A DNA stretch of 64,000 bases, taken from assembly GCA_002282015.1 (NCBI GenBank), contig NCIJ01000005.1, forward strand, positions 598 through 64,597. Reading direction: 5' to 3'. Origin of the DNA: Sulfuricurvum sp. 17-40-25 (GTDB lineage Bacteria > Campylobacterota > Campylobacteria > Campylobacterales > Sulfurimonadaceae). This document shows positions 16,285 to 29,440 of the stretch, piece after piece. How positions within the stretch are numbered: the stretch's first letter is position 1; each line of letters starts with the position of its first letter. Below the pieces are notes generated by a model. The model saw nothing but the letters and a program-made list of their open reading frames with translations. It did no database searches and had not been told where the DNA came from. Both the position numbers and the translations under genes were made by a program.

Positions 16285-16323
16285 TTTTACCTACTGCTTA
16301 TCGTATTGTGATGGATCAATATA

Positions 16324-16746
16324 TTAATTATCACGGACACAACGTACATAAAAATTTGAATTCTTTAGCTGGAGCGAATCGTCACCATTCTCGAAATTCA
16401 TACTCCATGCGTACCCGCTGTCGTAAACATTGCTTGAAGACCAATAATTTTTTGGTATTACATTTTTAAAAGCTGTATTAATGGCAATATTTGCTCTTTT
16501 TTCATCTCTAATTGAAAATAAATCATCCATAATTGGAAGTCTCCAATCACTGTGTCCTGCAAAACTAAGATTTGCACAATACGCCCTTGCCCCTTGTAAA
16601 TCCTGACTCACTCTTTCAACATCACGGCTATCCTGCCACATGAGTTTATTGTTCGCATCAATAACTACTTCTTGTGAGTCAATCCTAAGGACGTCTGCAT
16701 TACTAAATGCAACAAACAAACAAAAGATCAAAGAGAGTATTTTCAT
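16324..16746 (-). CDS. Secreted DUF1566 (Lcl C-terminal-like) domain protein
   Basis: Signal peptide MKILSLIFCLFVAFSNA, taken from the internal ATG at 16746. LMWQD, ARAYCANLSFAGHSDWRLP, YWSSS and YVRCVR blocks. Confidence 0.7.
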   Translation of the reverse strand: MKILSLIFCLFVAFSNADVLRIDSQEVVIDANNKLMWQDSRDVERVSQDLQGARAYCANLSFAGHSDWRLPIMDDLFSIRDEKRANIAINTAFKNVIPKNYWSSSNVYDSGYAWSMNFENGDDSLQLKNSNFYVRCVRDN

Positions 16747-16750
16747 TGCT

Positions 16751-17557
16751 CTACTTCTTCTCATTAAGTTGTTGGCGATAGGCTTTGATCTTGAGCAAAT
16801 CTTCAAGGCTTACAAAGGTATACCCCTGCTCTTTGAGGTTTTTGATGATTTGGGTCAGGGCACCGACACTGCTGCTATTACAATGCATCATGATAATATC
16901 ACCGCTTTGAATCTTACTGCCAACGATTTGGACAATAGGTTTTGGATCATCAATCGCCCAGTCAAGCGAATCCATAGACCATAAAATCGTCGTCATATTA
17001 TGCTCATTGGTGACATCCACCACCAAAGGATTGATGGCACCGTATGGCGGACGAAACAATAACGGATATTTTCCGGTAATTTCTTCGATACGCTGAGACG
17101 TTCGATCCAATTGAGCACTCATACCCGTAGCATTAAGATCGGTCATACGCGGATGGCTAAAACTGTGACTTAAAACAAGATGCCCTTCATCGTAAGCTCG
17201 CTTTACCAATGCAATGTTACTGCCTCTCATATTTTCACCAATCATAAAAAAAGAGGCTTTAACATCATTTTCTTTGAGAATATCCAGTAGTTTATGGGTG
17301 TTCAGTTCATCGGGAGCATCATCAAAGGTGAGAGTGATATTTTTAAGGGTACCATCGCCATGGGTGATCACATTTTTATACGTCCCAACAGGGAGTGGTT
17401 TGACGGTATTCGTACCCCATTGCCCTAAAAACAAAGTTTGATTAACATCCATAAACCATGAATTACCTCGGATACTGTCACGAGAATTTGAGTGCGCAAA
17501 GAGAGATAGTTGATTCAAGAGCAAAAGGATAAAAAAAAGTTTATACATTACAACCAT
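16751..17557 (-). CDS. Secreted polysaccharide deacetylase (CE4/NodB domain)
   Basis: TLTFDDAP, SHSFSHP, RPPYG, DSLDW, IIMMH; N-terminal signal peptide. Confidence 0.88.
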   Translation of the reverse strand: MVVMYKLFFILLLLNQLSLFAHSNSRDSIRGNSWFMDVNQTLFLGQWGTNTVKPLPVGTYKNVITHGDGTLKNITLTFDDAPDELNTHKLLDILKENDVKASFFMIGENMRGSNIALVKRAYDEGHLVLSHSFSHPRMTDLNATGMSAQLDRTSQRIEEITGKYPLLFRPPYGAINPLVVDVTNEHNMTTILWSMDSLDWAIDDPKPIVQIVGSKIQSGDIIMMHCNSSSVGALTQIIKNLKEQGYTFVSLEDLLKIKAYRQQLNEKK

Positions 17558-17626
17558 TTCACTAAAAAATTCAAATTTTATCCATGAGTTCTATGTTTTT
17601 TTGACGACGCTATTATACGATTATTC

Positions 17627-17635
17627 TGCTATAAT
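17627..17635 (+). promoter_or_regulatory. Extended -10 promoter candidate for pgaD and the OMP gene
   Basis: TGCTATAAT about 43 nt upstream of the TTG start at 17678; GAAGGGA RBS. Confidence 0.4.
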
Positions 17636-17677
17636 TTTCCCTATTTAAAGCATCTTCATTGAAGGGAATCAGGCTAC

Positions 17678-18121
17678 TTGGAAACATTAATCATTAACAA
17701 GCGTCGTGAATTGCCTAAAGCCAAACGGATCTTTTGGGACGGAATAACGGTCTTACTTTGGTTGGGTTTTCTTTATTTATGGAAGCCTGTATTTCTCATA
17801 TTTTATAAAATAATTACACTGGGTGCACCCGCCGATGAAATCGCAGATTGGATATTTGGTGAAATTCATAGCGTAACCTTTGAACACGCTATTATTGTAT
17901 TGATTACGACACCCATTGTATTATTTATATTGTCAAGACTAAACCGACACCAAGCCCCTAGTGAACATTTACTATATGACGCTAAAGACTATGCCGATTA
18001 TTTCGACCTAGACGATACCAACTTGCAACAGTGTACAAATAGCCAGTTAGTTACGGTTTACCATGATACACACGGTCATATCATCCGTCTGAATGATCAA
18101 ATCACAACACATAACCAATAA
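17678..18121 (+). CDS. pgaD: PgaD-like PNAG biosynthesis protein
   Basis: 147 aa with two N-terminal TM helices and a cytosolic tail. The overall layout and the tail (YDAKDYADYFDLDDTNLQQC..LVTVYHDTHGHIIRL) resemble E. coli PgaD as I recall it. Confidence 0.55.
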   Translation: METLIINKRRELPKAKRIFWDGITVLLWLGFLYLWKPVFLIFYKIITLGAPADEIADWIFGEIHSVTFEHAIIVLITTPIVLFILSRLNRHQAPSEHLLYDAKDYADYFDLDDTNLQQCTNSQLVTVYHDTHGHIIRLNDQITTHNQ

Positions 18122-19007
18122 AAAAAAATTTCTAACTTTGAAGCATATTAAGCTATTTAGTATATTGATTTTGATTTTTGGATCAATCACACTCAATGCT
18201 TCTACGATGGATGATTTAAGTCTATTAATCAAAAATAAAAAAGTCTTTATTTATGGCGTTAAAAGCACAGACAAAAACATAAGCAACGGCGTGGGTCTTT
18301 TTTATAATACACACAATCTAAAAGTAAAAGTCGAAGGCTCTGACACTGTATTTAAAACGGGTGCTGTTCTCACCTACAATCCGTTTCAAAATTCTACTTA
18401 CATCAATATCGGGGCGAACTACATTAATCAAAATGTGCAAGAAAATAATTCCATACATAATGACTTTAACCAATATTCCAGTGCAGTTTCCGTTGGCTAT
18501 ATGCTCAATAATGATCTCTATGTAGAGCTAGGAGAAAATATTAGCAGATTAAATGGTCCCCAAGTTTCTGAAGATACCAAAGCTAACAGTCAAATCATAA
18601 AAAACACCTATATACAAACAGGAAAACGATTTGAAACACCTATAGGAACAATCGACACTCACTTAAACAGCAGTCAGATTTACAACACGCTTGCAGTAAA
18701 AGAGGAAAATTACGAAAGTAAGATCAACTATTATCTTGATGATGCGATTAAAGTAGGTTATGCCTACAGTATTAATCAAGATCAAATATGCAATGCATAC
18801 TCTCTGAATCTCAGTTATTTTTCTACTGAATATATGAATAATATTACTCAGGACAGTTATAATGTGACCTTAGGGATTAAGGCAAACTTTACAGATATTA
18901 CCAATTTTTCGACCTATAAGCCATTAAATAAAGTAAAAAAACACTTAGCAAGAGCGCAAAAATTTGACCATCTCGTGCTACAGCACAATATGAACCTTCG
19001 TAAATAA
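18093..19007 (+). CDS. Putative outer-membrane beta-barrel protein (possible minimal PgaA-type porin)
   Basis: Signal-like N-terminus (LFSILILIFGSITLNAST), then about 12-14 amphipathic alternating strands (GVGLFYN, LKVKVEG, YINIGANYI, SAVSVGYML, IKVGYAYSI, AYSLNLSYF, YNVTLGIKANF). Rich in N and Y. The start codon is uncertain. Confidence 0.45.
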   Translation: MIKSQHITNKKKFLTLKHIKLFSILILIFGSITLNASTMDDLSLLIKNKKVFIYGVKSTDKNISNGVGLFYNTHNLKVKVEGSDTVFKTGAVLTYNPFQNSTYINIGANYINQNVQENNSIHNDFNQYSSAVSVGYMLNNDLYVELGENISRLNGPQVSEDTKANSQIIKNTYIQTGKRFETPIGTIDTHLNSSQIYNTLAVKEENYESKINYYLDDAIKVGYAYSINQDQICNAYSLNLSYFSTEYMNNITQDSYNVTLGIKANFTDITNFSTYKPLNKVKKHLARAQKFDHLVLQHNMNLRK

Positions 19008-19013
19008 AACGAT

Positions 19014-20132
19014 TTACTTCTTTTTCAAATGGACCAGTGTCTCATAATGCTGAGTGTGTGCAAACATATCAAACAACTGTACTTTGATAATCTCATAGGA
19101 TTTAAGCCACTCTATGTCTTTTGCAAGACTGGTTGCATTACAGCTTGAGTAGAGGATATCTTCAGGTGAGACTCTCTCTAACCATTTGCACAACTCTTGC
19201 CCCAATCCCCTACGTGGAGGATTCACGATAACAACATCCGGAGCTTTTGACGTTTCCGTACTAAAGCTCACCGCATCAAGTGCTTTAAATGTCAGGGTAT
19301 CAATGCCCAAAATGAGCGCTGAATCTTTGGCACACTCAATAGCTTCATTCTCAATCTCGACGCCAATAACATTTCGTTCATTAGTAGCCACATGCAACGC
19401 AAAGCCGCCAACACCGCAGAAAAGATCAATAATGCTCTTAGCCTCAAGATCATCAGTCCACTTTGCAACGGTTTTATACAGTTTTGCCGCTATGTCTGGA
19501 TTCGTTTGAAAAAAACTTTTGGGTCGAATAAAAAGAGGGATGCCATTGAGTTGTTCTTCCAAGCGTGTTTCCTCGGTCAAAAAGATCTCTTCCTCCCCTT
19601 CCAGTATCGCCATGTGAACGGGCTGAATGTTCACAGAGATGACACGAATATCAGGAGCCAATACTAGGAGTGACTCCATATTGCCTTGCAATCGTGAAAT
19701 GACTCCATGAGAACGCAATATAAAACGCAGCATCATAGTGCCATTATAAGAGCTACGCGTCAGCAGCACATATTTCAGCTCACCCTTTTTCTTTTTCACA
19801 TCATAGGCTTTTATTCCCAACCCTCTTAGCCAGTTTTGCGTGTGCTCCAGCACAGTTTGCATACTGATATCGTATAAAGGGCAGTTGATCAAACTTACTT
19901 CATCCGATAGCCCCAAGACTATCCCCTCATCACTGTTAGAAGCTACCATTTTGGCTTTATTGCGAAATCCCTTGAGCTGACTCGCAACGGGCTTCAACCA
20001 CTCTTGCACTCTAAAAGCTTCCAGTGCCTTATGTAAATGAGCACTCTTCTCAGTTAATTGCTCTGCATAGAACAGATCAATCTGTGAGCACGAATGACAT
20101 ACTTGCGTATCGTAATAGGAACAAAAACTCAT
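19014..20132 (-). CDS. rlmC: 23S rRNA (uracil747-C5)-methyltransferase RlmC
   Basis: Similar along its full length to E. coli RlmC/RumB as recalled: N-terminal Cys cluster, GFRNKAKMV, GELKYVLLT, VNIQPVHMAILEGEEEI, SFFQTNP, DLFCGVGGF, VNPPRRG, QLFDMF. Confidence 0.88.
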   Translation of the reverse strand: MSFCSYYDTQVCHSCSQIDLFYAEQLTEKSAHLHKALEAFRVQEWLKPVASQLKGFRNKAKMVASNSDEGIVLGLSDEVSLINCPLYDISMQTVLEHTQNWLRGLGIKAYDVKKKKGELKYVLLTRSSYNGTMMLRFILRSHGVISRLQGNMESLLVLAPDIRVISVNIQPVHMAILEGEEEIFLTEETRLEEQLNGIPLFIRPKSFFQTNPDIAAKLYKTVAKWTDDLEAKSIIDLFCGVGGFALHVATNERNVIGVEIENEAIECAKDSALILGIDTLTFKALDAVSFSTETSKAPDVVIVNPPRRGLGQELCKWLERVSPEDILYSSCNATSLAKDIEWLKSYEIIKVQLFDMFAHTQHYETLVHLKKK

Positions 20133-23119
20133 TATAGGACCTTCGGCTTTGCCGTACGCAAATAATGCAGAACAGTCGCAATCAAATCATCATCATCTTT
20201 ACTTTTACTTTGCAAGGTCTCTTTTGACCCATTCAGATACTCAATCGTGATGTTTTGGTTGTAGTTACCCACCATTTTGATCTTTTTTTCAATACTTAAA
20301 AGCTTGATAACCATTATCTCAAAAAATTGTTTGGTCGGATTGTCCAGTTTACCAAAACGATCTCCAATCTCTTCTTCGATCTCATAGATCTCTGTTGGTT
20401 CTTCACAATGACTGAGACGTCGATAGATCTCTAAACGTAGACGGTCTTCTCGTACGACCTCATCGCTGATAAAGGCGCTGACCGTGAGTTTTATATCTAC
20501 TTTGGCACGTACGGTAGTGGTTTGATTGGTGAGAATTTTGATCGCATCTTCCAACATACGCAAATACAAGGCATACCCGATATTTTTGATATGTCCGCTT
20601 TGCGCATCCCCTACGAGATTTCCCCCTCCTCTGATTTCCAGATCATGGTGCGCCAACATCGAACCGCTTCCCAAAAAGGAGTTTGATTCAAGGGCTATAA
20701 GTCTTTTCTTTGCCTCTTCGGTAAGGTTGTCTTTATCATTAACAATAAAATACGCATATCCTTCGATATGACCACGCCCTACACGCCCTCGTAACTGATG
20801 CAAGTCTGCCATACCAAATCGGTCCGCACCATCGATGATCATCGTGTTAACCGTCGGCATATGTATCCCTGATTCGATAATCGAAGTTGCTAACAAGACA
20901 TCGTATTCGCGGTCTTCAAATTTTTTGAGTTCCTCTTCCGTTTGAGCCGCACCAATTTGTGAGTGAAGGATCAAAATACGTAAATTTGGGAGAATCGCTT
21001 TGAGTTCTCCTGATTTAATCACCATCGAATCAATCGAGTTATGAACGTAGAAAAGCTGACCACCACGACGAAGCTCACGTAAAATGACCTCTTTGATCAA
21101 CTTCTCATCGTAGTTTTTAACAAAAGTTCGGACGCCTAGACGCTCACTAGGAGGGGTAAGAAGCTCAGACATCGTTTTAATCGAGCTTAGGGCTTGATTG
21201 AGACTGCGAGGGATTGGAGTGGCACTCATGGAGAGAAGATGCACATTGTCGTACAGTGATTTGAGTTTCTCTTTTTGTTTGACTCCAAATTTATGCTCTT
21301 CATCGATGATGACCAGACCCAACTTCGCGCAGCTGACATTGAACAGCGCATGCGTTCCCACGACACAATCAATCTCTCCCAATGAAAGCGCTTTGAGTGT
21401 GGCTGTTTTTTCTTTAGCAGTGACAAAACGGTCCAGCTTGGCAACCCGCAATCCAAATGAACCCAGCCTGGTTTTGAGCGAGGTAAAGTGTTGTGAGCTC
21501 AACAGGGTCGTAGGTACGACTAACAAGGTCTGATACCCTCCACGTGCGGCGGTAAAAATAGCATTCATTGCCACTTCGGTTTTTCCAAAACCGACATCAC
21601 CGCTGAGCAGTCGATCCATGATGTGCCCAGAGCTTAAATCGCTGACGATGGCGGCAATCGCACTGGCTTGATCAGGAGTGTAATCAAAACCTGCCGCATT
21701 TTGAAAACGGCGCAGTTCTCCCGCATCGACTTGCATAACGGATGCCTTGATCAACGCACGGCTTGCCGCAATGCCTACGATTTCTGATGCGATCTCAAAG
21801 AGGCGCATACGTACAGACTCTTTGAGTTTACCGAAGCTTCCTTTTCCTAAGCGATCCAGTACCGGCAGTGATCCTGAAGCGATGTAGCGGTCAATCGCAT
21901 CGAGATTCTCAACTGGAAGAAGAAGTTTATCATCCCCCATGTATTTAAGGACGACAAAATCTTTGATCGCACCCAAAATTTCGGCTTGTTCAATCCCCTC
22001 AAATATCCCTACACCGTACTCTTCATGAACAACGTAATCCCCTACTTTGAGATCATCCAACAATATCGAGGTTTTACGACGGCGGCGTTTTTTCTCATGC
22101 TTATTGAGTGAAATGATCACCTCATCGGGGCCTATGAGATTGAGGACTATCCCTGCAGTTTTAACCTCTAACCCCGTAAGATCAAAAATATTCGCCGCTT
22201 TTAGCTGCATCTCATTGGCCGCGATAATGGTGAATTTTTTCTTTTTATGGACACTGCGTAATGTTTCCAAACTCGGGGCAATCAACGGCGAATAGTGTAC
22301 GGCTTCAGGTATAACAGAGCACTCTAAATGTTCTCTTGGTAGCATAGGATGATCCGTACCATAGGATTCATCCAATAGGCTTTTCATCTCACGAAGACGC
22401 ATCACTTTCTTATCCAGAGTAAAATCATTTCCTTCATTACCCAGTATCCAAAAACCTAACGATGCGATGTCTTTGACAAAACTGTCACTTTCGCACTTTG
22501 CTATCTCTTTTTCAAAACGCTCAAATTGTCCCTCGTCCAAAGAGAAAAAAGCACTCGTCACACTAATTGAGGCCAGTTCCTCTGTCAGTGTACGCTGTGT
22601 CTCTACATCAAATGCTTTGATCTCTTCTACTTCATCATCGAACAAACTGATACGATGTGGATTTTCCTCACCCGGAATATAAATATCCAAAATATCCCCA
22701 CGATGTGAGACTTCACCTTCCATTTCCACCATATCCACAAAGGTATAGCCCCAATGCAGTAATCTCTGCTTTAATGCACTTAAATCAATACGCGAAGCAA
22801 ATTCAATCTCTGTGCTTTGCAGTAATGTCTCTTTTGGCATCGGGTACAGCAAGGTTTTAAGCGGTGAGATGACCAAGGGCTTTTTGCCCGCTTTGTAATA
22901 CGACCGCAATGCCGCAAACAGTGCAAACAGCTCTTCTCCAAACGGACGTAAGTCATCCATATACATCGCACGAAAATCAGGAAAAACAACCGTGTCAATA
23001 TTTAAGAATTTGGCAACATCCGACAGTTCTCCCGCTTCTTTTACATCCTCACAGATGATGATATCGCATCGGTTTTTAGGATTGTTTTTTAGATATTCGT
23101 AAAATCTGGCTTGTGACAT
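20132..23119 (-). CDS. mfd: Transcription-repair coupling factor Mfd
   Basis: 995 aa. CarD-like LKVGDYVVHEEYGVG, helicase motifs GDVGFGKTEVA, DEEHKFG and SATPIPRS, and a TRG region. Confidence 0.95.
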   Translation of the reverse strand: MSQARFYEYLKNNPKNRCDIIICEDVKEAGELSDVAKFLNIDTVVFPDFRAMYMDDLRPFGEELFALFAALRSYYKAGKKPLVISPLKTLLYPMPKETLLQSTEIEFASRIDLSALKQRLLHWGYTFVDMVEMEGEVSHRGDILDIYIPGEENPHRISLFDDEVEEIKAFDVETQRTLTEELASISVTSAFFSLDEGQFERFEKEIAKCESDSFVKDIASLGFWILGNEGNDFTLDKKVMRLREMKSLLDESYGTDHPMLPREHLECSVIPEAVHYSPLIAPSLETLRSVHKKKKFTIIAANEMQLKAANIFDLTGLEVKTAGIVLNLIGPDEVIISLNKHEKKRRRRKTSILLDDLKVGDYVVHEEYGVGIFEGIEQAEILGAIKDFVVLKYMGDDKLLLPVENLDAIDRYIASGSLPVLDRLGKGSFGKLKESVRMRLFEIASEIVGIAASRALIKASVMQVDAGELRRFQNAAGFDYTPDQASAIAAIVSDLSSGHIMDRLLSGDVGFGKTEVAMNAIFTAARGGYQTLLVVPTTLLSSQHFTSLKTRLGSFGLRVAKLDRFVTAKEKTATLKALSLGEIDCVVGTHALFNVSCAKLGLVIIDEEHKFGVKQKEKLKSLYDNVHLLSMSATPIPRSLNQALSSIKTMSELLTPPSERLGVRTFVKNYDEKLIKEVILRELRRGGQLFYVHNSIDSMVIKSGELKAILPNLRILILHSQIGAAQTEEELKKFEDREYDVLLATSIIESGIHMPTVNTMIIDGADRFGMADLHQLRGRVGRGHIEGYAYFIVNDKDNLTEEAKKRLIALESNSFLGSGSMLAHHDLEIRGGGNLVGDAQSGHIKNIGYALYLRMLEDAIKILTNQTTTVRAKVDIKLTVSAFISDEVVREDRLRLEIYRRLSHCEEPTEIYEIEEEIGDRFGKLDNPTKQFFEIMVIKLLSIEKKIKMVGNYNQNITIEYLNGSKETLQSKSKDDDDLIATVLHYLRTAKPKVL

Positions 23120-23194: not shown

Positions 23195-23956
23195 TCATCT
23201 ATATTTTAATCTGATGATTCGATGTTGTGGATCGATATTATTTATAGCATCTTCGAGATTAAAGCCCAGATGTGCCAAAATCAATTCCATATCATCGACG
23301 ATTTCATGCCGTCTCTTTCTGCTACTATGAAACGGTTTATGGTGTGCATTGTCATTACGAGACTTTCGTATCGATTCCAGCATCAACGTCATAGCTTTTT
23401 TACCGATCTTTTTTAAATCATGACCTTTAAAAGTTTTTTCTTCAAATAGGTCTGACAAATCCACCCAAAACGAAATATACAATGTCTTTAAGCCGCCGAG
23501 CAAAATATAATCGAAAATTTGAAATGTATCCATCAGTAGAATATTCTCACTATCAAGAGTGATAATTTCTTTAGATTTATCTAATGTATGCTGAATTTTA
23601 GTGGGAACCAAAGATCGATTATGTAGCCAATCATCTTGATTTGCTGAACTGTACTTTTCAGACAAGACAATTGCCGCTTTTGAGCGAATAGCCGTCTCGA
23701 AAATATTGAAAAGCAAAAACATCACTTGATGCTCTTTGATATGCTTATTGTACAGACCCATCAAAAAATCAAAATCAGATTCTATGACCTTAGCAGGATT
23801 GGAGGTTTTAATATAAGCAAATTCTTTGCTAGCAATTTTAAAATAAGCTTGATTGACGAGATCACCTGCTTTTGCAAATTTTGAATATTCAGAATGTGTA
23901 TTATCAATATATATCGCCGCACATAACTCATGCAATACCTTGTCATGTAACGTCAA
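23195..23956 (-). CDS. Abi_2 (AbiD/AbiF-like) HEPN-containing abortive-infection-type protein
   Basis: 253 aa. NIFETAIRSKAA and LLGGLKTLYISFW blocks; C-terminal IRKSRNDNAHHKP contains an Rx4H HEPN motif. TTG start with an AAGGGA RBS. Confidence 0.6.
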   Translation of the reverse strand: MTLHDKVLHELCAAIYIDNTHSEYSKFAKAGDLVNQAYFKIASKEFAYIKTSNPAKVIESDFDFLMGLYNKHIKEHQVMFLLFNIFETAIRSKAAIVLSEKYSSANQDDWLHNRSLVPTKIQHTLDKSKEIITLDSENILLMDTFQIFDYILLGGLKTLYISFWVDLSDLFEEKTFKGHDLKKIGKKAMTLMLESIRKSRNDNAHHKPFHSSRKRRHEIVDDMELILAHLGFNLEDAINNIDPQHRIIRLKYR

Positions 23957-24111: not shown

Positions 24112-24303
24112 CTCTATTTTCTCCGTCATACCGTGCTTGACACGGTATCCATCCCCATCTTTGCTCATCTTAATTCAGCCTCTTCACATTTTCATAACTC
24201 TTTATTTATCATTTCCTAATTGTATGGTATAATTCTAGTTAAAGGTTCCCAGCTACTGACAAGACTCCAAGGGAGGCTTCTTCGGATAGGTAGCATGGGT
24301 CAT

Positions 24304-25287
24304 TTAATAATGAACTTCGACTCTATCTCTTGTCATAACTTCTTCTTCCAATAAATACTGTTTAATCATTTCATAATAGCTTGGATCACCATGCTCATAT
24401 TTTCGGTTAACAGCCCATCCGATATAGTCAATAATCTGTAAATTTGAACTGGATGCACTACAATGATGATGGATTGTGTAGCGCAAGTCTTTACCATTTG
24501 TCTTTAAATACTGTTTGATGCCTTTTTTAAGTGCTTTAATTTGTGCATTTTTATTTGCAAGAACAGGTAATCTATCCGTGATAATTATAAAATTTCGATT
24601 GATGTGAATTTTATCGAGTAGCTGCGTAATAGCAAACATAAGGTTGTCTACATAAAAGATAGAACGCTCTTTCCGTTTTTCGGGATGAACTTTTGGTTTT
24701 TCAAGAATGTATGAATAGACTTGTACCGCTTCTTTAGTAAAGGTGCTGATAGTTTCAAACATTTTTTGTCTTATATATTTATTATCTTCGCACGCATGAA
24801 AAGCTTCAATATCCAATACCTCTTTTACAAAAGGATCAAGATTTCGTTCAATCAATTCATAGCGATAATTGGCAATATACTCATGCAGTTGAAACGGACG
24901 AGTTTTAACCAAAAAGTTAAACATATAATGTTTGCTACCCTTGGTGGAGAAATCCATATCACCTGATTCATCAACAAAAATATAAACTGCATCGCCGATA
25001 TTAGATTGATGGATATTTTCGTTAATAGCGAATTCAATATTAGTTGTTTCACTATAATCGGATCTAAACCCATTAATGAATTCTAAAATAAGTTGTTTAT
25101 CTTCCGTGTCAATCTTTTGTAATTCAAAATAATAAATTGGATTGACATAAAATATTGCAATTTTATAGGTTTCATTCCATTCTCTATGTTCATCCTTTTC
25201 AATATAAGCATTTTCAAATTTCAATGCCAAATCAAAGCGTTTTTGTATTCTTAAAAGATTTTGGATAGTTTTGATTGTATTGCTCAC
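24304..25287 (-). CDS. DUF3800-family protein with a unique N-terminal extension of about 100 aa
   Basis: VYIFVDESGD (aa 101-110) and C-terminal SSSNLQIIDYIGWAV are DUF3800 signature blocks. The GTG start overlaps the stop of the upstream type IIG gene (GTGTGA). Confidence 0.65.
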   Translation of the reverse strand: MSNTIKTIQNLLRIQKRFDLALKFENAYIEKDEHREWNETYKIAIFYVNPIYYFELQKIDTEDKQLILEFINGFRSDYSETTNIEFAINENIHQSNIGDAVYIFVDESGDMDFSTKGSKHYMFNFLVKTRPFQLHEYIANYRYELIERNLDPFVKEVLDIEAFHACEDNKYIRQKMFETISTFTKEAVQVYSYILEKPKVHPEKRKERSIFYVDNLMFAITQLLDKIHINRNFIIITDRLPVLANKNAQIKALKKGIKQYLKTNGKDLRYTIHHHCSASSSNLQIIDYIGWAVNRKYEHGDPSYYEMIKQYLLEEEVMTRDRVEVHY

Positions 25288-28211
25288 ACTTTCCCCTCCA
25301 CAATTCTAATCTCATCCGCACTCAAACCATAAAGCGCATACACCATCCCATCGATCTCTTTTTCGCACTCGACTACTCTAGCCTCTAGTTTTTCCGTCGC
25401 CTCTTTTATCTCGATTTTATCAATCGCACTTAGGCTATCGAAGTGTTTTTTGTATTTTTTGAGTGTTTCTTTGGCATTTAAAATTTCATCCACAAAATTT
25501 ATAAACTGTGTTTCATCATCTGCCGATGACCTTTTAATAGGTAAGATTTGCAAATGCCCTCGTTTAACTTGTGCTAATGCTTTTCCCTCTTCAGGGTTGA
25601 TAATATTTCTATAAAACCATGTTAATAGTTTCGAGTTTATAAGGGCTAAAAGGTATTTTAAATTTATATTTTTTTCATCATTTCTTATAACATATAAGTT
25701 ATCCCTTGCAATAAACTGCTGATTATCATATGTAGCAATTAATGAGTCAGAAGTTTGTCGAATTACTAATTTTTCATCACAATCAAATTTAGCTGACAAT
25801 CTCGGTTCAGCCAACCATTCCCCATAACTAATCCAATAGTTATTGCTCCAATGGATTGAATAACGCTCCATTAAACTACCTCTTAATAACGGCAAAAATG
25901 TATCATCATTTTTTATTTCTGATACAAAAGGTTTTTTTTCTAAAATTTCTTTTGTTTGTTTTGGAACACCTTTATTAACCTGAAAAGGTTTTGTTCCTTG
26001 AACGATTTGTGTAATCTCACCTAATGGAGTCGAATCTAACATTTTTGCTTTTATAATTTGTAGTTCCATTGTCTCATAGATGTTAATCGGCTCTCCATTC
26101 TTTTGCCATATCTCTTGATTCACAATATGACTTTTTTCAGAGATTTTATTTTTTATTTTGATAGTGATTTGGTTGTTTAATGGTTCAGTCGTTTTGAAAA
26201 AATATGTATCTGCTTCTACAGTTGCATCCTCAAATACAAAGTAATCATAATGTGTAATTTCTGGAATTGTTACTTTATAGGTAATAAAATTTCTTATTTT
26301 TTTAGCAAATAATGATGACATCCATGTGTTAGGCATAATAAAACCAATTAAAGAATCTGGTTTTAAAAGGTCAATAGATTTTTCAATAAAAAGCAAATAT
26401 GTATCAAGCTGATATTCAACAGTTTTAAAACGCTCATAGAAATATTTTTTATGTTTTTCGCTGAGTTGTGCGCCATAAGGCGGGTTCCCAATAACAACAT
26501 CGAAACCACCTTGTGCAAAAACTTCGGGAAATTCATCTTCCCATACAAACGCATTTTCAGCAACGCTACGATCTGATATAAGACTATTTCCACATTTTAT
26601 TTTAGCACCTAAATTGATAAGCTCTCGCCCCTTATGAGCAGTTCGTAGCCATAAACTAAGCTTCGCAATCTCCACTGCATCCTCGTTTATATCCACACCG
26701 TAGAGGTTATGTTCGAGGATACTTTTTTCGACTTCGTATCCGATCATCAAATCCTCATACGGCAACAGTAAATCCCGTATGAGGGTATGCTCACGGATGA
26801 GAAACTCTAGCGCTTGGTTAAGAAACGCACCGCTTCCGCAAGCAGGGTCTAGGATTTTGAGATGGGTTAGCCATTCTCTGTAGTTTAACAATATTTCTTT
26901 GTAGCTCTGCTCTTGCTTCGTGAGTTTACGAGGATTGACAACCACCGTTTCGGACTCGATTTTCAGCTCTGTTTTTTTGTCACTACACAATTTGCCTAGG
27001 GTGTTTTCGACGATGTAACGTGTAATATATTCAGGAGTATAAAATACTCCATCTTTTTTACGCTTGGATTTTTTCTTGTCAAACTCTGTATCGTTGATTG
27101 AGGCGTTCATCTCTTCGAGGTCAGTAAGCGACTGCTCGAAAATATGTCCCAAAATGTTGACACTAATATCACTTTCAAAATCAAAGTCTGAGAGTTTTTG
27201 TGCTTCCATGTCGAGGTAGCTATCATCTATTTTAAGAGAGTCAAGCATCTCGTCGGTGGCGAACAATCCACCATTATATTTCGGAATGCCGAGTTTGTCG
27301 TTTCCCGTGTTGATAGCGTTAAAATAGAGCTTGTAGTAATCGTACATACTGCGGTCACCAAAACCATCTTGTTGGTGGCGTGAGCGTATCTCTTTGACGG
27401 TATTTGCTTTTAATAAATTTCGATCTTCGGCAAAGAGGATAAAGATGATTCGGTCGCAGAGTTTTTGGGTGAGGCGCAGGAGGGTTTGTTTGTCTAACTC
27501 CGTTCGCCCTGAGCCTGTCGAAGGGTGTTGTGGTTCGACAAGCTTACCACGAACGGAAGTTTCGGCAGAGTAATTGTTCTTGATAATATTCTCAAAAAGA
27601 TGTGATCTAAATTGGCTAAAGTCACGATAGAGTTCTTTTGAAATTGTTTGCTCAAAACTTGCCGATTTCTCTTTGAGTTTGAGGGGGATATCCTCTTTTA
27701 GACTCTCAAAGCAAATGAGTACGTGAAGCTTTTTAAATTCGTCATACGTGAGGGTAAAAAGATTGAACTTTTCATAGGCTGTTTTTTTATCGATGTAAAA
27801 GCGCAGTTCATTGAAGTTGGAAATAATAATGTATTTGGAATTGGAGTGAGAGGCGTGATAGTTAAAAGCTTGACCCTCAACCACATCAAGATTTTTGGTC
27901 TTTTGATCTTTTAGCTCGACTATCCCGATAATCTCACCGTTAACATAAATAACGCCGTCGGCTTTTTTGCCATCAGTTTCATTTTTCTTTTCCCGTTCCA
28001 AATTATAATCATCTGGGTTGGTGGTTTTGAGGGTATAGCCTAAGCAGGATTCAAAAATATCTTTAAAAAATCCGTCTTGATACACCTCTTCTTTAAAGCC
28101 TTTGATCGCTTCAACTTTGGCTAAATAGCTTTGATATTTTGCCCATCGCTGTGCGATGAGGCTTTCATCTTGTTTGACTGAATTTAAAACAGATTTTTGA
28201 AAAATTGACAA
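25284..28211 (-). CDS. Type IIG/IIL single-polypeptide restriction-modification enzyme (MmeI/Eco57I-like: nuclease + N6-adenine methyltransferase + TRD)
   Basis: N-terminal D85..E99-x-K101 block (ADGVIYV..GIVELKDQK). MTase motifs GVFYTPEYI, ILDPACGSGAFL and VVIGNPPYG. Long C-terminal specificity region ending in a YGLSADEIRIVE tail. TTG start with an AAGG RBS. Confidence 0.82.
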   Translation of the reverse strand: MSIFQKSVLNSVKQDESLIAQRWAKYQSYLAKVEAIKGFKEEVYQDGFFKDIFESCLGYTLKTTNPDDYNLEREKKNETDGKKADGVIYVNGEIIGIVELKDQKTKNLDVVEGQAFNYHASHSNSKYIIISNFNELRFYIDKKTAYEKFNLFTLTYDEFKKLHVLICFESLKEDIPLKLKEKSASFEQTISKELYRDFSQFRSHLFENIIKNNYSAETSVRGKLVEPQHPSTGSGRTELDKQTLLRLTQKLCDRIIFILFAEDRNLLKANTVKEIRSRHQQDGFGDRSMYDYYKLYFNAINTGNDKLGIPKYNGGLFATDEMLDSLKIDDSYLDMEAQKLSDFDFESDISVNILGHIFEQSLTDLEEMNASINDTEFDKKKSKRKKDGVFYTPEYITRYIVENTLGKLCSDKKTELKIESETVVVNPRKLTKQEQSYKEILLNYREWLTHLKILDPACGSGAFLNQALEFLIREHTLIRDLLLPYEDLMIGYEVEKSILEHNLYGVDINEDAVEIAKLSLWLRTAHKGRELINLGAKIKCGNSLISDRSVAENAFVWEDEFPEVFAQGGFDVVIGNPPYGAQLSEKHKKYFYERFKTVEYQLDTYLLFIEKSIDLLKPDSLIGFIMPNTWMSSLFAKKIRNFITYKVTIPEITHYDYFVFEDATVEADTYFFKTTEPLNNQITIKIKNKISEKSHIVNQEIWQKNGEPINIYETMELQIIKAKMLDSTPLGEITQIVQGTKPFQVNKGVPKQTKEILEKKPFVSEIKNDDTFLPLLRGSLMERYSIHWSNNYWISYGEWLAEPRLSAKFDCDEKLVIRQTSDSLIATYDNQQFIARDNLYVIRNDEKNINLKYLLALINSKLLTWFYRNIINPEEGKALAQVKRGHLQILPIKRSSADDETQFINFVDEILNAKETLKKYKKHFDSLSAIDKIEIKEATEKLEARVVECEKEIDGMVYALYGLSADEIRIVEGKV
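27495..27557 (-). repeat. GC-rich nested palindromic element inserted in-frame in the type IIG gene
   Basis: Coding strand reads TCCGTTCGTGGTAAGCTTGTCGAACCACAACACCCTTCGACAGGCTCAGGGCGAACGGAG. Outer stem CCGTTCG/CGAACGG, inner stem GTCGAA/TTCGAC. Encodes SVRGKLVEPQHPSTGSGRTE. Confidence 0.6.
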
Positions 28212-28285: not shown

Positions 28286-29440
28286 CTATAGCTTACCCAT
28301 CCTCTTTAAAAATGCTTCGGCTACACTGAAGGAACCAAAAACGAGATATTCTTTCTGGGGATCTATGGATTCAAATGTTCCATAGGTAAGCCCAAGCTCT
28401 ACTAAAACTGCTTCCAACAAAGGGCGCTCAACAATACGCTCCTCATCTACCGTGATAATCTCTACACAATCAATGATCGGAGCCAAAAGACTCAAAATCT
28501 CACGGTAGTCTTTATCCCCATAGCTGTTGTAGATCAGGCTTATTTTTTTACCTTGAAAAGCTGCTGCAATCGCGCTTGCGGCAAGAGCGTTATGTCCGAC
28601 ATCCAAAGTCACGTTGTGCGCAACTTTACTCAGTCGTCCAAAAAGGGCTTTTTGATCAAAATATACTTCTTGAGCCTTGTACCCTAGTAACTCAAACGCC
28701 ACCATAGCCAGTTCACAATTATCCCGTAAATACTCGCTCAATCCGTTTTTTAGGGCAAGTTGCAATCCCCTCGTGCGAATACGCGAATCTATAGATTCCT
28801 GAAGCGTTTGCAATCGGCACTGTTTACTCACTGCAATCTCATGTGCTATACTCTGAACCTCATCGTATTTTTGTATCCCCAACAGCGCATTGGTTTGCAT
28901 ACTGCGCAATTTTGTACTCGCTATTGATTCAATGGTTGATCCTAAAAAAGCGGCATGATCAAAAGCAATCGGGGTGAAGATGCTGAGCACTTTATCAAAC
29001 ACATTCGTCGCATCAAATTCACCGCCAAGCCCGGCTTCCAAGACCACATACTCACACGACTCAAAAGCTACCATCGCCAGCAGCGTTGTGTACTCAAAAT
29101 AGCTCAAAGACTCAGCCGTAGAAGTGTCTAAAAATTTTCCTAGCTTTTGATAGGCATCATTCAATGTAGCATCACTGACATCCTCACCATCGATCCATAT
29201 ACGTTCATTGAATTGGAGAATATGAGGAGACGTATAATGCCCCGTTTTTTTACCAGCACGACTCAAAGCCGTGGCTAAAAATCGCCCCGTACTTCCTTTG
29301 CCATTCGTTCCGACAATATGGATGATTTTGGGGAGATGCAGAAAGTGAGCAATTTTTGCATAGGCTTTTGGGAACCGATCATAATCAATAACATCGTAAA
29401 AGAGTGGTTTAGCGGCTAAAAATGATTCGAGATCCATCAT
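28286..29440 (-). CDS. folC: Folylpolyglutamate synthase/dihydrofolate synthase
   Basis: HIVGTNGKGSTGRF P-loop and the Mur-ligase-type layout. Confidence 0.88.
   Translation of the reverse strand: MMDLESFLAAKPLFYDVIDYDRFPKAYAKIAHFLHLPKIIHIVGTNGKGSTGRFLATALSRAGKKTGHYTSPHILQFNERIWIDGEDVSDATLNDAYQKLGKFLDTSTAESLSYFEYTTLLAMVAFESCEYVVLEAGLGGEFDATNVFDKVLSIFTPIAFDHAAFLGSTIESIASTKLRSMQTNALLGIQKYDEVQSIAHEIAVSKQCRLQTLQESIDSRIRTRGLQLALKNGLSEYLRDNCELAMVAFELLGYKAQEVYFDQKALFGRLSKVAHNVTLDVGHNALAASAIAAAFQGKKISLIYNSYGDKDYREILSLLAPIIDCVEIITVDEERIVERPLLEAVLVELGLTYGTFESIDPQKEYLVFGSFSVAEAFLKRMGKL

What the first reader, a model, noticed from the sequence alone, without database searches (positions are those of the whole stretch)
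24304..28211. MmeI-like type IIG R-M enzyme translationally coupled to an N-terminally extended DUF3800 protein: candidate undescribed two-gene defence module
Seen in sequence: a 975-aa ORF fuses three parts. These are a PD-(D/E)xK-like block (D85...E99-x-K101), gamma-class N6-adenine methyltransferase motifs (GVFYTPEYI; ILDPACGSGAFL; VVIGNPPYG), and a long C-terminal specificity region. Its TGA stop overlaps the GTG start of the next ORF (GTGTGA at 25284-25287). The two genes must therefore be co-transcribed and are probably translationally coupled. The 327-aa partner has both DUF3800 signature blocks (VYIFVDESGD at aa 101-110; SSSNLQIIDYIGWAV near the C-terminus). These sit behind an N-terminal extension of about 100 aa in which I recognise no motif. 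Established knowledge: MmeI-type enzymes are normally solitary single-polypeptide systems, and DUF3800 has no assigned function. Inference: the pair may work as one unit. DUF3800 could be a second effector, a sensor, or a modulator of the IIG enzyme. The pair sits beside an Abi_2/HEPN gene in a small island.
Basis: partly seen in the sequence, partly recalled or inferred. Interest (0 to 1): 0.75.

Follow-up and report, generated by a model that had tools for sequence, protein, structure and literature searches.

The report
RNase H-like gene with partner RNA
The gene after this restriction enzyme is not its dedicated partner: it is half of a portable unit, an RNase H-like nuclease gene plus a previously undescribed small structured RNA, that lodges in restriction-modification operons of every type, and some phages carry the RNA alone, which suggests an RNA antidote to a defence nuclease.

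Summary
A 975-aa type IIG restriction-modification gene (25284-28211, minus strand) overlaps by GTGA a 327-aa DUF3800 gene (24304-25287), and a divergent Abi_2/HEPN gene follows.

The interpretation, a dedicated IIG+DUF3800 module, holds only in part.
- In 97 non-redundant related loci, DUF3800 sits in type I operons (23), beside Mod/type III genes (8), beside IIG enzymes of at least three unrelated lineages (9), or alone among housekeeping genes.
- The closest relative found in the genome scan (84% identity) has DUF3800 alone at the same folC-mfd site.
- Stop/start fusion occurs with any upstream gene.

A ~70-nt structured element overlaps the DUF3800 stop codon (window ~24241-24310). It is present in essentially every locus with readable 3' flank, shows strong covariation, matches no Rfam family, and has a conserved extended -10 promoter on the opposite strand.

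At least four phage contigs, from three lineages, carry the RNA without DUF3800.

Best reading: an autonomous cassette made of an RNase HII-like nuclease gene and a small RNA gene, linked to R-M operons and probably acting like a toxin-antitoxin or abortive-infection system with the RNA as antidote. The architecture is shown; the mechanism is inferred.

The parts
25284..28211 (-). Type IIG restriction-modification enzyme, 975 aa, TTG start. Parts: N-terminal PD-(D/E)xK nuclease (D85, E99, K101), helical spacer, gamma-class N6-adenine methyltransferase, TaqI_C-type specificity domain.
   Evidence: Eco57I 1.6e-42, TaqI_C 1e-22, HSDR_N 30.3 bits; PADLOC REase_MTase_IIG 1e-163; more than 7,900 relatives; 100% identical to a Sulfuricurvum MAG protein.
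25284..25299 (-). Junction: Shine-Dalgarno-like GGAGG (25299-25295), GTG start of DUF3800 (25287-25285), overlapping the TGA stop of the IIG gene (25286-25284).
   Evidence: The same kind of fusion to unrelated upstream genes is seen in 41 of 92 related loci.
24994..25287 (-). N-terminal extension of the DUF3800 protein (aa 1-98): a compact alpha/beta domain specific to one clade, of unknown fold family.
   Evidence: Conserved in alignment A1. AlphaFold2 pLDDT 90.7. No PDB match, best E 0.17. Absent from short-form relatives that still carry the RNA (L025, L032, L033, L133).
24304..24993 (-). DUF3800 domain proper (aa 99-327): RNase HII-like fold with invariant D106, E107, D238 and Q284-x-x-D287.
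   Evidence: Pfam DUF3800 37 bits. Invariant columns. Full-length model pLDDT 86.4. Foldseek top hits are RNase HII 1eke (E 1.6e-5, probability 1.0), 1uax and 1x1p.
24241..24310 (+). Predicted small RNA of about 70 nt, transcribed towards DUF3800 so that its 3' end overlaps the DUF3800 stop codon (24304-24306). Features: 5' AAAGGUUCC; outer stem 24248-24256 with 24290-24299; conserved hairpin 24261-24279; vestigial variable hairpin 24280-24285; tail UCAUUUAAUAA 24300-24310. The ends are inferred, not mapped.
   Evidence: Covariance-model hit at window 24212-24306, 98 bits. Covariation. Strand evidence. Coordinates. No Rfam match.
24206..24233 (+). Promoter of the small RNA: -35-like TTATCA (24206-24211), 16-nt spacer, extended -10 TGgTATAAT (24225-24233).
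   Evidence: Promoter scan, 10 of 12 matches with TG. The box is conserved at a fixed distance in 97 of 100 distinct elements, 65 of them exact TATAAT.
23195..23956 (-). Divergent Abi_2/HEPN-family gene, 253 aa. It is a separate module that moves independently, not part of the DUF3800 cassette.
   Evidence: 18 of 23 family members match Abi_2; invariant R199-x4-H204. It occurs alone among housekeeping genes in L262-L264 and after a different IIG gene in L261. It is absent from L001.
28286..29440 (-). folC, the upstream chromosomal flank of the island.
   Evidence: NCBIfam folC 2e-75. In L001 this gene is fused directly to DUF3800.
20132..23119 (-). mfd (transcription-repair coupling factor), the downstream chromosomal flank of the island.
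   Evidence: Pfam TRCF, CarD_TRCF_RID, DEAD and UvrB_inter. Syntenic with L001.

Best explanation
The window holds three independent modules stacked between folC and mfd. (1) A self-sufficient single-chain type IIG R-M enzyme. (2) An autonomous two-part cassette: a promoterless gene for an RNase HII-like DUF3800 nuclease, and a small structured RNA gene of about 70 nt that is transcribed towards it from its own extended -10 promoter and ends over the DUF3800 stop codon. (3) A free-standing Abi_2/HEPN gene. The DUF3800+RNA cassette is the real unit. It lodges at the 3' end of other genes, often overlapping their stop codon and so borrowing their transcription and translation, and it prefers R-M operons of any type. 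That makes it a 'restriction-linked ORF' in the Campylobacter sense, not a subunit of the IIG enzyme. Most likely mechanism (inferred): the RNA binds and restrains the nuclease, in the manner of a type III toxin-antitoxin pair. Infection, or loss of the locus, lowers the level of the short-lived RNA and frees the nuclease to cut nucleic acid, perhaps RNA in RNA:DNA hybrids, which aborts the infection. Phages answer by carrying their own copy of the RNA. What is shown here: the cassette's anatomy, its constant RNA partner, the RNA's conserved structure and promoter, the interchangeable neighbours, and the orphan copies in phages. What is inferred: nuclease activity, RNA-protein binding, the antidote role, and the anti-phage phenotype.
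For: Cassette with sharp ends: similarity between the window and L001 runs from the DUF3800 start codon to 77 nt past the stop, at 83.5% nt, against 73-75% for the flanking housekeeping genes. The upstream flanks are unrelated between loci. Constant RNA partner: the covariance model finds one copy directly 3' of DUF3800 in all 35 close genome loci, including two with DUF3800 pseudogenes that were not in the training set; in distant loci from Ignavibacteriaceae, Caldisericota and Gammaproteobacteria (28-36% protein identity); and in 78 of 80 metagenome loci. Structure: 16 pairs, 9 with compensatory changes; 95.8% of cells paired against 28-44% in slid controls; 59 double-change cells against 0-11. 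This was replicated on 69 independent sequences: 95.4% paired, 88 double changes against 4-14. Own promoter on the opposite strand: 97 of 100 distinct elements have a TATAAT-like box at a fixed distance, 65 exact and 40 with TGn; variants keep T1, A2 and T6. The antisense strand folds better: alifold -15.2 against -8.5, and 29 of 34 single sequences. Rfam's DUF3800-X lies the same way, antisense at the 3' end of archaeal DUF3800 genes. Nuclease fold: RNase HII 1eke, E 1.6e-5, with invariant D106, E107, D238, D287; this agrees with PMC7736814 and PMC10910872. R-M linkage with interchangeable partners and solo copies. Phage copies of the RNA alone, in three lineages, with compensated stems and no DUF3800 in any frame, next to terminase, portal, HNH and RusA genes. 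No DUF3800 protein was found in viral contigs. One locus, L039, has a tandem array of RNA units, as type III antitoxins do. Precedents from the literature: rlo genes inside Campylobacter type I loci and the PrrC model (PMC2610378, PMC2928727). The precedent of phage-borne pseudo-ToxI RNA rests on my own knowledge and was not checked here.
Against: There are no expression or phenotype data, so the RNA's strand, ends and existence as a discrete transcript are inferred. The wobble evidence on strand is mixed: interior pairs favour antisense 23 to 6, but one junction pair shows 36 sense-only U-G. DUF3800 has no hit in PADLOC, NCBIfam or PHROGs, so no defence role is on record. In the window the RNA is a single copy, downstream and antisense, unlike classical type III antitoxins, which are tandem, upstream and sense. 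Phage copies could have other meanings, such as remnants, recombination sites or regulators. R-M neighbours were called with HMMs built from these same loci, seeded from Pfam-verified proteins, and no background rate of R-M adjacency in these R-M-rich lineages was measured. Most loci come from MAGs and metagenome contigs.
Confidence: 0.55

Rival explanations
1. One reading: IIG and the N-terminally extended DUF3800 form one dedicated two-gene defence system, with DUF3800 acting as second effector, sensor or modulator of this IIG enzyme.
For: GTGA overlap and a good Shine-Dalgarno sequence. The window-type IIG recurs directly upstream of DUF3800 in L007 and L113, and one gene away in L133. In all, IIG-DUF3800 adjacency is seen in about 9 non-redundant loci.
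Against: The closest relative has DUF3800 alone at the same site. Type I and type III partners together outnumber IIG. The IIG partners come from at least three unrelated lineages and show no co-divergence with DUF3800. Four of five sampled close IIG relatives have no DUF3800 nearby, and the fifth has it one gene further on. The N-terminal extension occurs equally in type I, type III and solo contexts, and is lost in L133, which does have a IIG gene.
Confidence: 0.08
2. A guard of restriction, like PrrC or RloC: the DUF3800+RNA unit is functionally tied in trans to whichever R-M system hosts it. It stays silent while restriction works and fires when a phage anti-restriction factor or DNA damage disables it.
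For: Embedding inside R-M operons, between hsdS and hsdR or between mod and res, and stop/start fusion to R-M genes. A literature precedent for exactly this arrangement in the same bacterial group (PMC2610378, PMC2928727).
Against: About 40% of well-flanked loci have no R-M gene within 5 kb. The partners span enzyme types with no shared subunit, so a common physical contact is hard to picture. The cassette brings its own regulator-like RNA. The phage copies are of the RNA, not of an anti-restriction protein.
Confidence: 0.17
3. RNA-dependent nuclease: the small RNA is a required cofactor or scaffold of DUF3800, as omega-RNA is for TnpB/IscB or msDNA for retron effectors, rather than an inhibitor.
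For: RNase H-like folds often work with nucleic-acid cofactors. DUF3800 is the effector of type VII retrons and accompanies some Cas12 systems. There is strict one-to-one linkage of protein and RNA across phyla.
Against: No variable, guide-like segment is visible: the whole transcribed part is conserved or covaries, and the variable spacer lies upstream of the inferred start. It is harder to see why phages would carry the cofactor alone.
Confidence: 0.12
4. A selfish insertion cassette with no defence role: a mobile gene that survives by slotting in behind other genes. The conserved 3' element would serve its mobility, or act as a bidirectional terminator plus outward promoter that limits polar damage.
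For: Sharp cassette ends, different insertion sites in close relatives, and precise fusion to upstream stop codons. The cassette is more conserved than its flanks.
Against: No recombinase, repeats or target-site signature were seen. Invariant unpaired nucleotides and covarying stems kept across phyla exceed what a terminator needs. Orphan copies with maintained structure in phages. The preference for R-M operons.
Confidence: 0.08

Closest known systems
DUF3800-associated RNA motifs DUF3800-I to -XI (Weinberg et al. 2017, PMC5737381; Rfam examples RF02968, RF02969, RF02984)
   Same: A conserved, structured non-coding RNA encoded right next to a DUF3800 gene. As with Rfam's DUF3800-X in the archaeal loci L043 and L045, it lies at the gene's 3' end on the opposite strand. 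Function unknown in both cases.
   Different: No Rfam model detects the window's element, even at E up to 10 on a 161-nt stretch. Its shape also differs: an outer stem enclosing a variable hairpin and a conserved hairpin, where DUF3800-X is a single nested rod. The R-M linkage and the phage orphan copies are not mentioned in the parts of that paper held here; its supplement was not available.
Type III toxin-antitoxin / abortive-infection systems (ToxIN type)
   Same: A protein nuclease paired with a small structured RNA. Phages carry the RNA alone, and one locus (L039) has tandem RNA units.
   Different: DUF3800 is an RNase H-like fold, not a ToxN/AbiQ fold. In the window the RNA is single-copy, downstream, convergent and has its own promoter. 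Binding and inhibition are untested.
Restriction-linked ORFs (rloA-H) and the PrrC/RloC anticodon nucleases embedded in type I and type III R-M loci (PMC2610378, PMC2928727)
   Same: An accessory nuclease-type gene inserted inside R-M operons, especially in Campylobacterota; also found away from R-M loci, as RloC is.
   Different: No ABC-ATPase or anticodon-nuclease domain. It has an RNA partner. It is also found next to single-chain IIG enzymes.
Eco57I/MmeI-type type IIG R-M enzymes
   Same: The 975-aa protein has the full architecture and motifs.
   Different: It is only weakly MmeI-like in sequence: MmeI_N is below threshold (17.3 against 27 bits) and no MmeI chain appears in the PDB sequence search. 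Close relatives usually carry a variable gene fused downstream.
Type VII retrons (reverse transcriptase plus DUF3800 effector; PMC7736814) and Cas12a2-linked TPR-DUF3800 (PMC10910872)
   Same: The same protein domain used next to a nucleic-acid-based immune component.
   Different: No reverse transcriptase, msr/msd or CRISPR-Cas genes among the neighbours. PADLOC models give no hit to this protein.

Membership tests
Type IIG R-M enzyme (Eco57I/MmeI architecture) | Single polypeptide with an N-terminal PD-(D/E)xK nuclease | tested here: met
   D85, E99-x-K101; Pfam HSDR_N 30.3 bits against a cut-off of 25.1 over aa 78-144.
Type IIG R-M enzyme (Eco57I/MmeI architecture) | Gamma-class N6-adenine methyltransferase motifs in the order X, I, IV, plus a C-terminal specificity domain | tested here: met
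   Motifs at 388-396, 453-464 and 572-580; Eco57I 145.9 bits, N6_Mtase 64.6, TaqI_C 81.1; PADLOC REase_MTase_IIG 1e-163.
Type IIG R-M enzyme (Eco57I/MmeI architecture) | Cuts at a fixed distance from an asymmetric site and methylates one strand | not testable with these tools
   Needs enzymology and a methylome.
MmeI family in the strict sense | Matches to the MmeI-specific N-terminal and helicase-spacer models | tested here: inconclusive
   MmeI_Mtase 52.9 and MmeI_hel 28.0 bits pass the cut-off of 27, but MmeI_N at 17.3 does not. No MmeI chain was found by sequence in the PDB.
DUF3800 (PF12686) | Pfam model above the gathering score; N-terminal DE motif and C-terminal QxxD motif | tested here: met
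   37 bits against 21; D106-E107 and Q284-x-x-D287, invariant in A1.
DUF3800 (PF12686) | RNase H2-like fold, as published predictions state | tested here: met
   AlphaFold2 pLDDT 86.4; Foldseek 1eke E 1.6e-5, 1uax 2e-3, 1x1p 1e-2.
Known DUF3800 RNA motifs in Rfam | Match to one of the Rfam DUF3800 covariance models | tested here: not met
   No hit at gathering score or at E up to 10, while the same library finds DUF3800-X in L043 and L045.
Known DUF3800 RNA motifs in Rfam | Conserved secondary structure supported by covariation, encoded next to a DUF3800 gene | tested here: met
Type III toxin-antitoxin | The RNA binds and neutralises the protein toxin; the toxin processes the RNA | not testable with these tools
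   Needs co-expression, toxicity rescue and binding assays.
Type III toxin-antitoxin | Tandem-repeat antitoxin RNA upstream of the toxin, in sense, separated from it by a terminator | tested here: not met
   In the window: single copy, downstream, convergent. Only L039 has tandem units.
PrrC/RloC-type restriction-linked nuclease | Embedded in a type I or type III R-M locus | tested here: met
   True for the family: 23 type I and 8 Mod/type III loci of 97. In the window itself the host is a IIG gene.
PrrC/RloC-type restriction-linked nuclease | ABC-ATPase N-domain plus an anticodon-nuclease C-domain | tested here: not met
   Only DUF3800 is detected, and the fold is RNase HII-like.
Type VII retron | Reverse transcriptase and msr/msd RNA next to DUF3800 | tested here: not met
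   The neighbours are the IIG gene, Abi_2-like, folC and mfd. No retron model or retron RNA was hit.
Abi_2 / HEPN (neighbouring 253-aa gene) | Pfam Abi_2 match and the HEPN R-x4-6-H motif | tested here: met
   The window protein alone is below threshold (20.1 against 25.6 bits). 18 of 23 family members match (best 2e-7), 11 match HEPN_Swt1, and R199-x4-H204 is invariant.

The most novel reading that the evidence does not exclude
DUF3800 proteins and their diverse neighbouring RNAs (this new motif plus the 11 unexplained Rfam motifs) form a widespread, so far unrecognised class of protein-RNA immune or addiction modules. In this class a small structured RNA is the antidote to an RNase H-like toxin, and phages defeat it with RNA decoys. 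The class rides inside R-M operons as a second line of defence.
Probability: 0.35. Interest if true: 0.85.

Novelty: new variant of a known kind. Interest (0 to 1): 0.68.

Why it matters
Since 2017 there have been eleven structured RNA motifs linked to DUF3800 genes and no idea what they do. This locus adds a twelfth, and with it three handles that make the question testable:
1. A clear gene layout: a promoterless nuclease gene and a convergent small RNA with its own strong promoter.
2. A strong habit of sitting inside restriction-modification operons of every type.
3. Phage genomes that carry the RNA alone.

Together these point to a specific experiment: is the RNA an antidote to an RNase H-like toxin, and do phages use it as a decoy? 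A positive answer would define a new family of RNA-controlled defence nucleases and explain a set of orphan Rfam families.

It would also give a mechanism for the DUF3800 effectors of type VII retrons and some Cas12 systems.

For annotation, the result warns against reading stop/start overlap as proof of a dedicated partnership.

Tried and rejected
- **Rfam.** Scans of the whole window, of a 6-kb stretch and of a 161-nt stretch gave nothing relevant.
- **Protein libraries.** PADLOC, NCBIfam and PHROGs gave no hit for the DUF3800 protein. A profile search of the DUF3800 family against PDB sequences found nothing, so no relative has a solved structure.
- **N-terminal domain.** The fold search found no significant match.
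- **Ancestral IIG-Abi pair.** I tested whether IIG plus the Abi-like gene was the original pair, split by insertion of DUF3800. Rejected: none of the genes downstream of five IIG relatives, and no neighbour in more than 110 DUF3800 loci, resembles the Abi-like protein. In L261 an unrelated 486-aa gene lies between IIG and Abi-like.
- **Co-divergence of IIG and DUF3800.** Tested and not found.
- **Viral searches.** The search of viral contigs for the DUF3800 protein found none. A loose, gapped RNA pattern returned 120 or more mostly chance hits, of which only two were real, L148 and the already known L136. A tight fixed-length pattern returned four hits, all real.
- **Sense-strand 3'-UTR reading of the RNA.** Considered and ranked below the antisense reading, but not excluded.
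- **Integron attC site, or phage attachment site inside an RNA gene.** Considered and set aside by inspection: no R'/R'' core sites, no integrase nearby, and the phage copies are full-length and diverged.
- **Weinberg 2017 supplement.** Not held in the library.

Full report
**1. The observation.**
The 975-aa ORF (25284-28211) carries every motif quoted, at the quoted residues. It is a type IIG enzyme by Pfam (Eco57I 1.6e-42, TaqI_C 1e-22, N6_Mtase, MmeI_Mtase, HSDR_N) and by PADLOC (REase_MTase_IIG 1e-163).

Its TGA stop overlaps the GTG start of the 327-aa ORF (24304-25287) by four bases, and GGAGG lies 7 nt upstream. The 327-aa protein passes Pfam's DUF3800 threshold (37 against 21 bits, aa 102-296).

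The region is low in GC, 33-34% against 41-45% in the flanks. It lies between folC and mfd. The organism is a Sulfuricurvum (Campylobacterota): both proteins are 100% identical to proteins of Sulfuricurvum MAGs.

**2. What was already known about DUF3800.**
It is not a blank. It is the effector of type VII retrons and was modelled on RNase H2 (PMC7736814). It accompanies a branch of Cas12a2 and was predicted to have an RNase H fold (PMC10910872). Eleven different structured RNA motifs, DUF3800-I to -XI, are encoded next to DUF3800 genes, with no known function (PMC5737381).

My own model (pLDDT 86.4) gives RNase HII structures as top PDB matches (1eke, E 1.6e-5). D106, E107, D238 and Q284-x-x-D287 are invariant.

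The N-terminal ~98 residues are conserved across ~330-aa homologues. They fold confidently on their own (pLDDT 90.7) but match nothing in the PDB.

**3. Is DUF3800 a dedicated partner of the IIG enzyme?**
I fetched 49 genome loci and 80 metagenome loci that encode relatives. I classified their neighbours with Pfam and with profile HMMs seeded from Pfam-verified proteins.

After removing near-duplicates, 97 loci of the close subfamily remain:

| Context (R-M gene within 5 kb) | Loci |
|---|---|
| Type I genes, typically hsdM-hsdS-DUF3800-hsdR | 23 |
| Mod methyltransferase or mod-DUF3800-res | 8 |
| IIG enzyme | 9 |
| No R-M gene detected (many are short contigs) | 57 |

Of the 28 loci with at least 3 kb on both sides, 16 have an R-M gene, or 17 counting a type ISP enzyme seen by Pfam. 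In 12 of the 28 an R-M gene is directly adjacent on the same strand.

So the linkage to restriction-modification is real and strong, but the partner can be swapped.

- **The IIG partners are unrelated to one another.** They fall into at least three lineages, and their divergence does not track that of DUF3800 (Spearman 0.13, p 0.41).
- **The closest relative is solo.** L001 is another Sulfuricurvum, 84% identical in protein. It has DUF3800 alone at the same chromosomal site, in the order leuS, lptE, folC, DUF3800, mfd, with a 4-nt overlap onto folC.
- **Other close relatives sit among housekeeping genes:** between hypF and hycI, ruvC and thyX, a miaB-like gene and DUF374, or phnA and ubiD.
- **From the IIG side the picture is the same.** The family has more than 7,900 members. 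Five close relatives each carry a different gene downstream (overlapping the IIG stop in four of them), followed by PemK, RNase T, Zeta toxin or Schlafen/AlbA_2 genes. Only one (L133) has DUF3800, one gene further on and without its N-terminal extension.

Upstream flanks are unrelated between loci. In 41 of 92 loci the DUF3800 start overlaps, or lies within 20 nt of, the stop of whatever gene is upstream.

**4. The partner that was missed.**
Similarity between the window and L001 covers the DUF3800 ORF plus 77 nt beyond its stop, and it is higher (83.5%) than in the flanking housekeeping genes (73-75%). Lining up the 3' flanks of all loci shows an element of about 70 nt that begins at the stop codon in every one.

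- **Structure.** RNAalifold predicts 16 pairs, 9 with compensatory changes.
- **Controls.** 95.8% of cells are paired against 28-44% when partners are slid. There are 59 double-change cells against 0-11, and no shuffle of 500 reaches the observed values. The independent metagenome set reproduces this: 69 distinct sequences, 95.4% paired, 88 double changes against 4-14.
- **Distribution.** A covariance model finds exactly one copy directly 3' of DUF3800 in the window (24212-24306, 98 bits) and in all 35 close genome loci, including two pseudogene loci not used in training. It also finds the element in distant loci from Ignavibacteriaceae, Caldisericota and Gammaproteobacteria, where the protein is only 28-36% identical (L039 has three tandem copies), and in 78 of 80 metagenome loci. 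In at least one of the two misses (L075) the contig ends at the gene.
- **Novelty.** No Rfam family matches, even at E up to 10 on a 161-nt stretch. The same library does find DUF3800-X directly 3' of two archaeal DUF3800 genes. The element is therefore a new member of the series of DUF3800-associated RNAs.

**5. Which strand?**
Just beyond the element, every locus has a box that reads TGnTATAAT on the strand opposite to DUF3800.

- **Promoter.** 97 of 100 distinct elements have a hexamer matching TATAAT in at least 5 of 6 positions. In 86 of them it lies 9-12 nt from the conserved GTNCC box. 65 are exact and 40 have the TGn extension. Variants keep T1, A2 and T6. A short spacer of variable sequence separates the box from the start of the conserved block, as expected between a promoter and a start site. 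The generic promoter scan flags it independently in the window: TTATCA, 16 nt, TATAAT, 24206-24233 on the + strand.
- **Folding.** The opposite strand folds better: alifold -15.2 against -8.5 kcal/mol, and 29 of 34 single sequences.
- **Wobble pairs.** Interior wobble pairs favour the opposite strand 23 to 6.
- **Precedent and phage context.** Rfam's DUF3800-X has the same orientation. In all the phage copies described below, that strand runs with the neighbouring genes.
- **Against.** One junction pair shows 36 U-G wobbles that work only on the sense strand.

I take the RNA to be a ~70-nt convergent transcript (window + strand, about 24241 to 24310) whose outer stem plus U-rich tail ends over the DUF3800 stop codon. 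I give this roughly 70% confidence.

**6. Phage copies.**
The DUF3800 protein was not found in viral contigs. The RNA was. Four contigs from three lineages carry it: L136, L139, and the related pair L148 and L260. They score 66-71 bits with compensated stems (L148: CCGCCCTGA with TCAGGGCGG). They lie among portal, terminase, HNH and RusA genes. A DUF3800 family profile finds no trace of the protein in any frame.

L136 and L139 share the ~85-nt element almost exactly but have unrelated flanks. So the RNA alone is maintained in phage genomes.

**7. The third gene.**
The 253-aa protein is a divergent Abi_2/HEPN protein at the family level. It is also an independent floater. It follows a different IIG gene and an unrelated 486-aa gene in L261, and it sits alone inside housekeeping operons in L262-L264. 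It is absent from L001. The 'island' is therefore three stacked modules, each found separately elsewhere.

**8. How it most likely works.**
Shown here: an autonomous cassette made of an RNase HII-like gene without its own conserved promoter, and a strongly promoted, structured, convergent small RNA gene. The cassette is inserted behind other genes, with a marked preference for R-M operons.

Inferred: the RNA binds and holds the nuclease in check, as in a type III toxin-antitoxin pair. The strong covariation argues that the RNA's shape matters rather than simple antisense pairing, because the phage versions differ in stem sequence. Infection or loss of the locus depletes the RNA and releases the nuclease. 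Phages carry the RNA as a decoy, as phage-borne pseudo-ToxI does against ToxIN (from my own knowledge, not checked here).

Its home inside R-M operons matches the 'restriction-linked ORFs' of Campylobacter and the PrrC model (PMC2610378, PMC2928727).

I rate the architecture at about 0.85-0.9 and the antidote mechanism at about 0.4. They are scored separately in the report sections.

**9. Limits.**
- There are no expression or phenotype data.
- Most loci are MAG or metagenome contigs.
- The R-M calls give a lower bound, and no background rate of R-M adjacency was measured.
- The protein search of viral contigs relied on two exact peptide patterns.
- The viral RNA scans were pattern-limited, so four phage copies is a minimum.

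**10. Verdict.**
What is really there is a new variant of a known but unexplained kind, the pairing of a DUF3800 gene with an RNA. It now comes with a gene layout, a genomic habitat and phage counter-copies that make its function directly testable.

Noticed in passing
L039:8700-9200 (Gammaproteobacteria bacterium AqS3): Downstream of a distant DUF3800 gene there is a tandem array: three full copies of the RNA element (35-50 bits) interleaved with shorter related hairpin units. This recalls the repeat arrays of type III antitoxins.
   Followed up: partly
L043:4296-4365 and L045:8642-8713 (archaeal MAGs): Rfam DUF3800-X (RF02984, 71-72 bits) lies directly 3' of archaeal DUF3800 genes, on the opposite strand. 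This is the same placement as the new element, although the sequence and shape differ.
   Followed up: partly
L136:7341-7432, L139:1267-1358, L148:2156-2249, L260:8734-8827 (IMG/VR viral contigs): Orphan copies of the RNA element sit inside phage gene modules with no DUF3800 gene. The hosts of these phages were not determined.
   Followed up: partly
L130, L132, L133, L134, L261 (loci of close IIG homologues): Window-type IIG genes usually have a gene fused to their stop codon, but a different one each time: proteins of 252, 337, 200, 212 and 486 aa, none with a Pfam match. These are often followed by PemK, Zeta toxin or Schlafen/AlbA_2 genes. A sixth locus, L131, has only a 61-aa ORF and then an RNase T gene. 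This looks like a variable accessory slot behind these enzymes.
   Followed up: partly
window:23195-23956; L262, L263, L264: The Abi_2/HEPN-like 253-aa gene occurs as a single inserted gene inside unrelated housekeeping operons in other Sulfuricurvum contigs (a MoxR/VWA operon, a cobalamin operon, and between coaE and dapF). It is therefore a mobile one-gene module of its own.
   Followed up: partly
L133:6613-7436 (Sulfuricurvum GCA_030654895.1): This DUF3800 copy is 95% identical to L002 over its C-terminal 240 residues but has lost the N-terminal extension. It keeps the RNA element (96 bits). The extension is therefore dispensable, or this copy is decaying.
   Followed up: no
L034:8007-8798 and L035:8295-8809: The DUF3800 genes here are broken by frameshifts or truncation, but the RNA element is intact (80-82 bits).
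   Followed up: no
window:29437-30969: A GGDEF diguanylate cyclase gene lies between folC and lptE in the window but is missing at the syntenic place in L001, so this neighbourhood varies beyond the three-gene island.
   Followed up: no
window:5000-9000 and 16000-19500: Two further low-GC stretches (35.6-38.5% against about 41-44%). The second includes a 304-aa ORF (18093-19007, + strand) with no hit in Pfam, PADLOC or NCBIfam. These may be other acquired segments.
   Followed up: no
window:23957-24205: About 250 nt between the small RNA's promoter and the Abi-like gene has no counterpart in L001 and no assigned feature. It presumably holds the Abi-like gene's own promoter; a TAGAAA, 18 nt, TAGAAT site with TG lies at 24018-23989 on the minus strand.
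   Followed up: no
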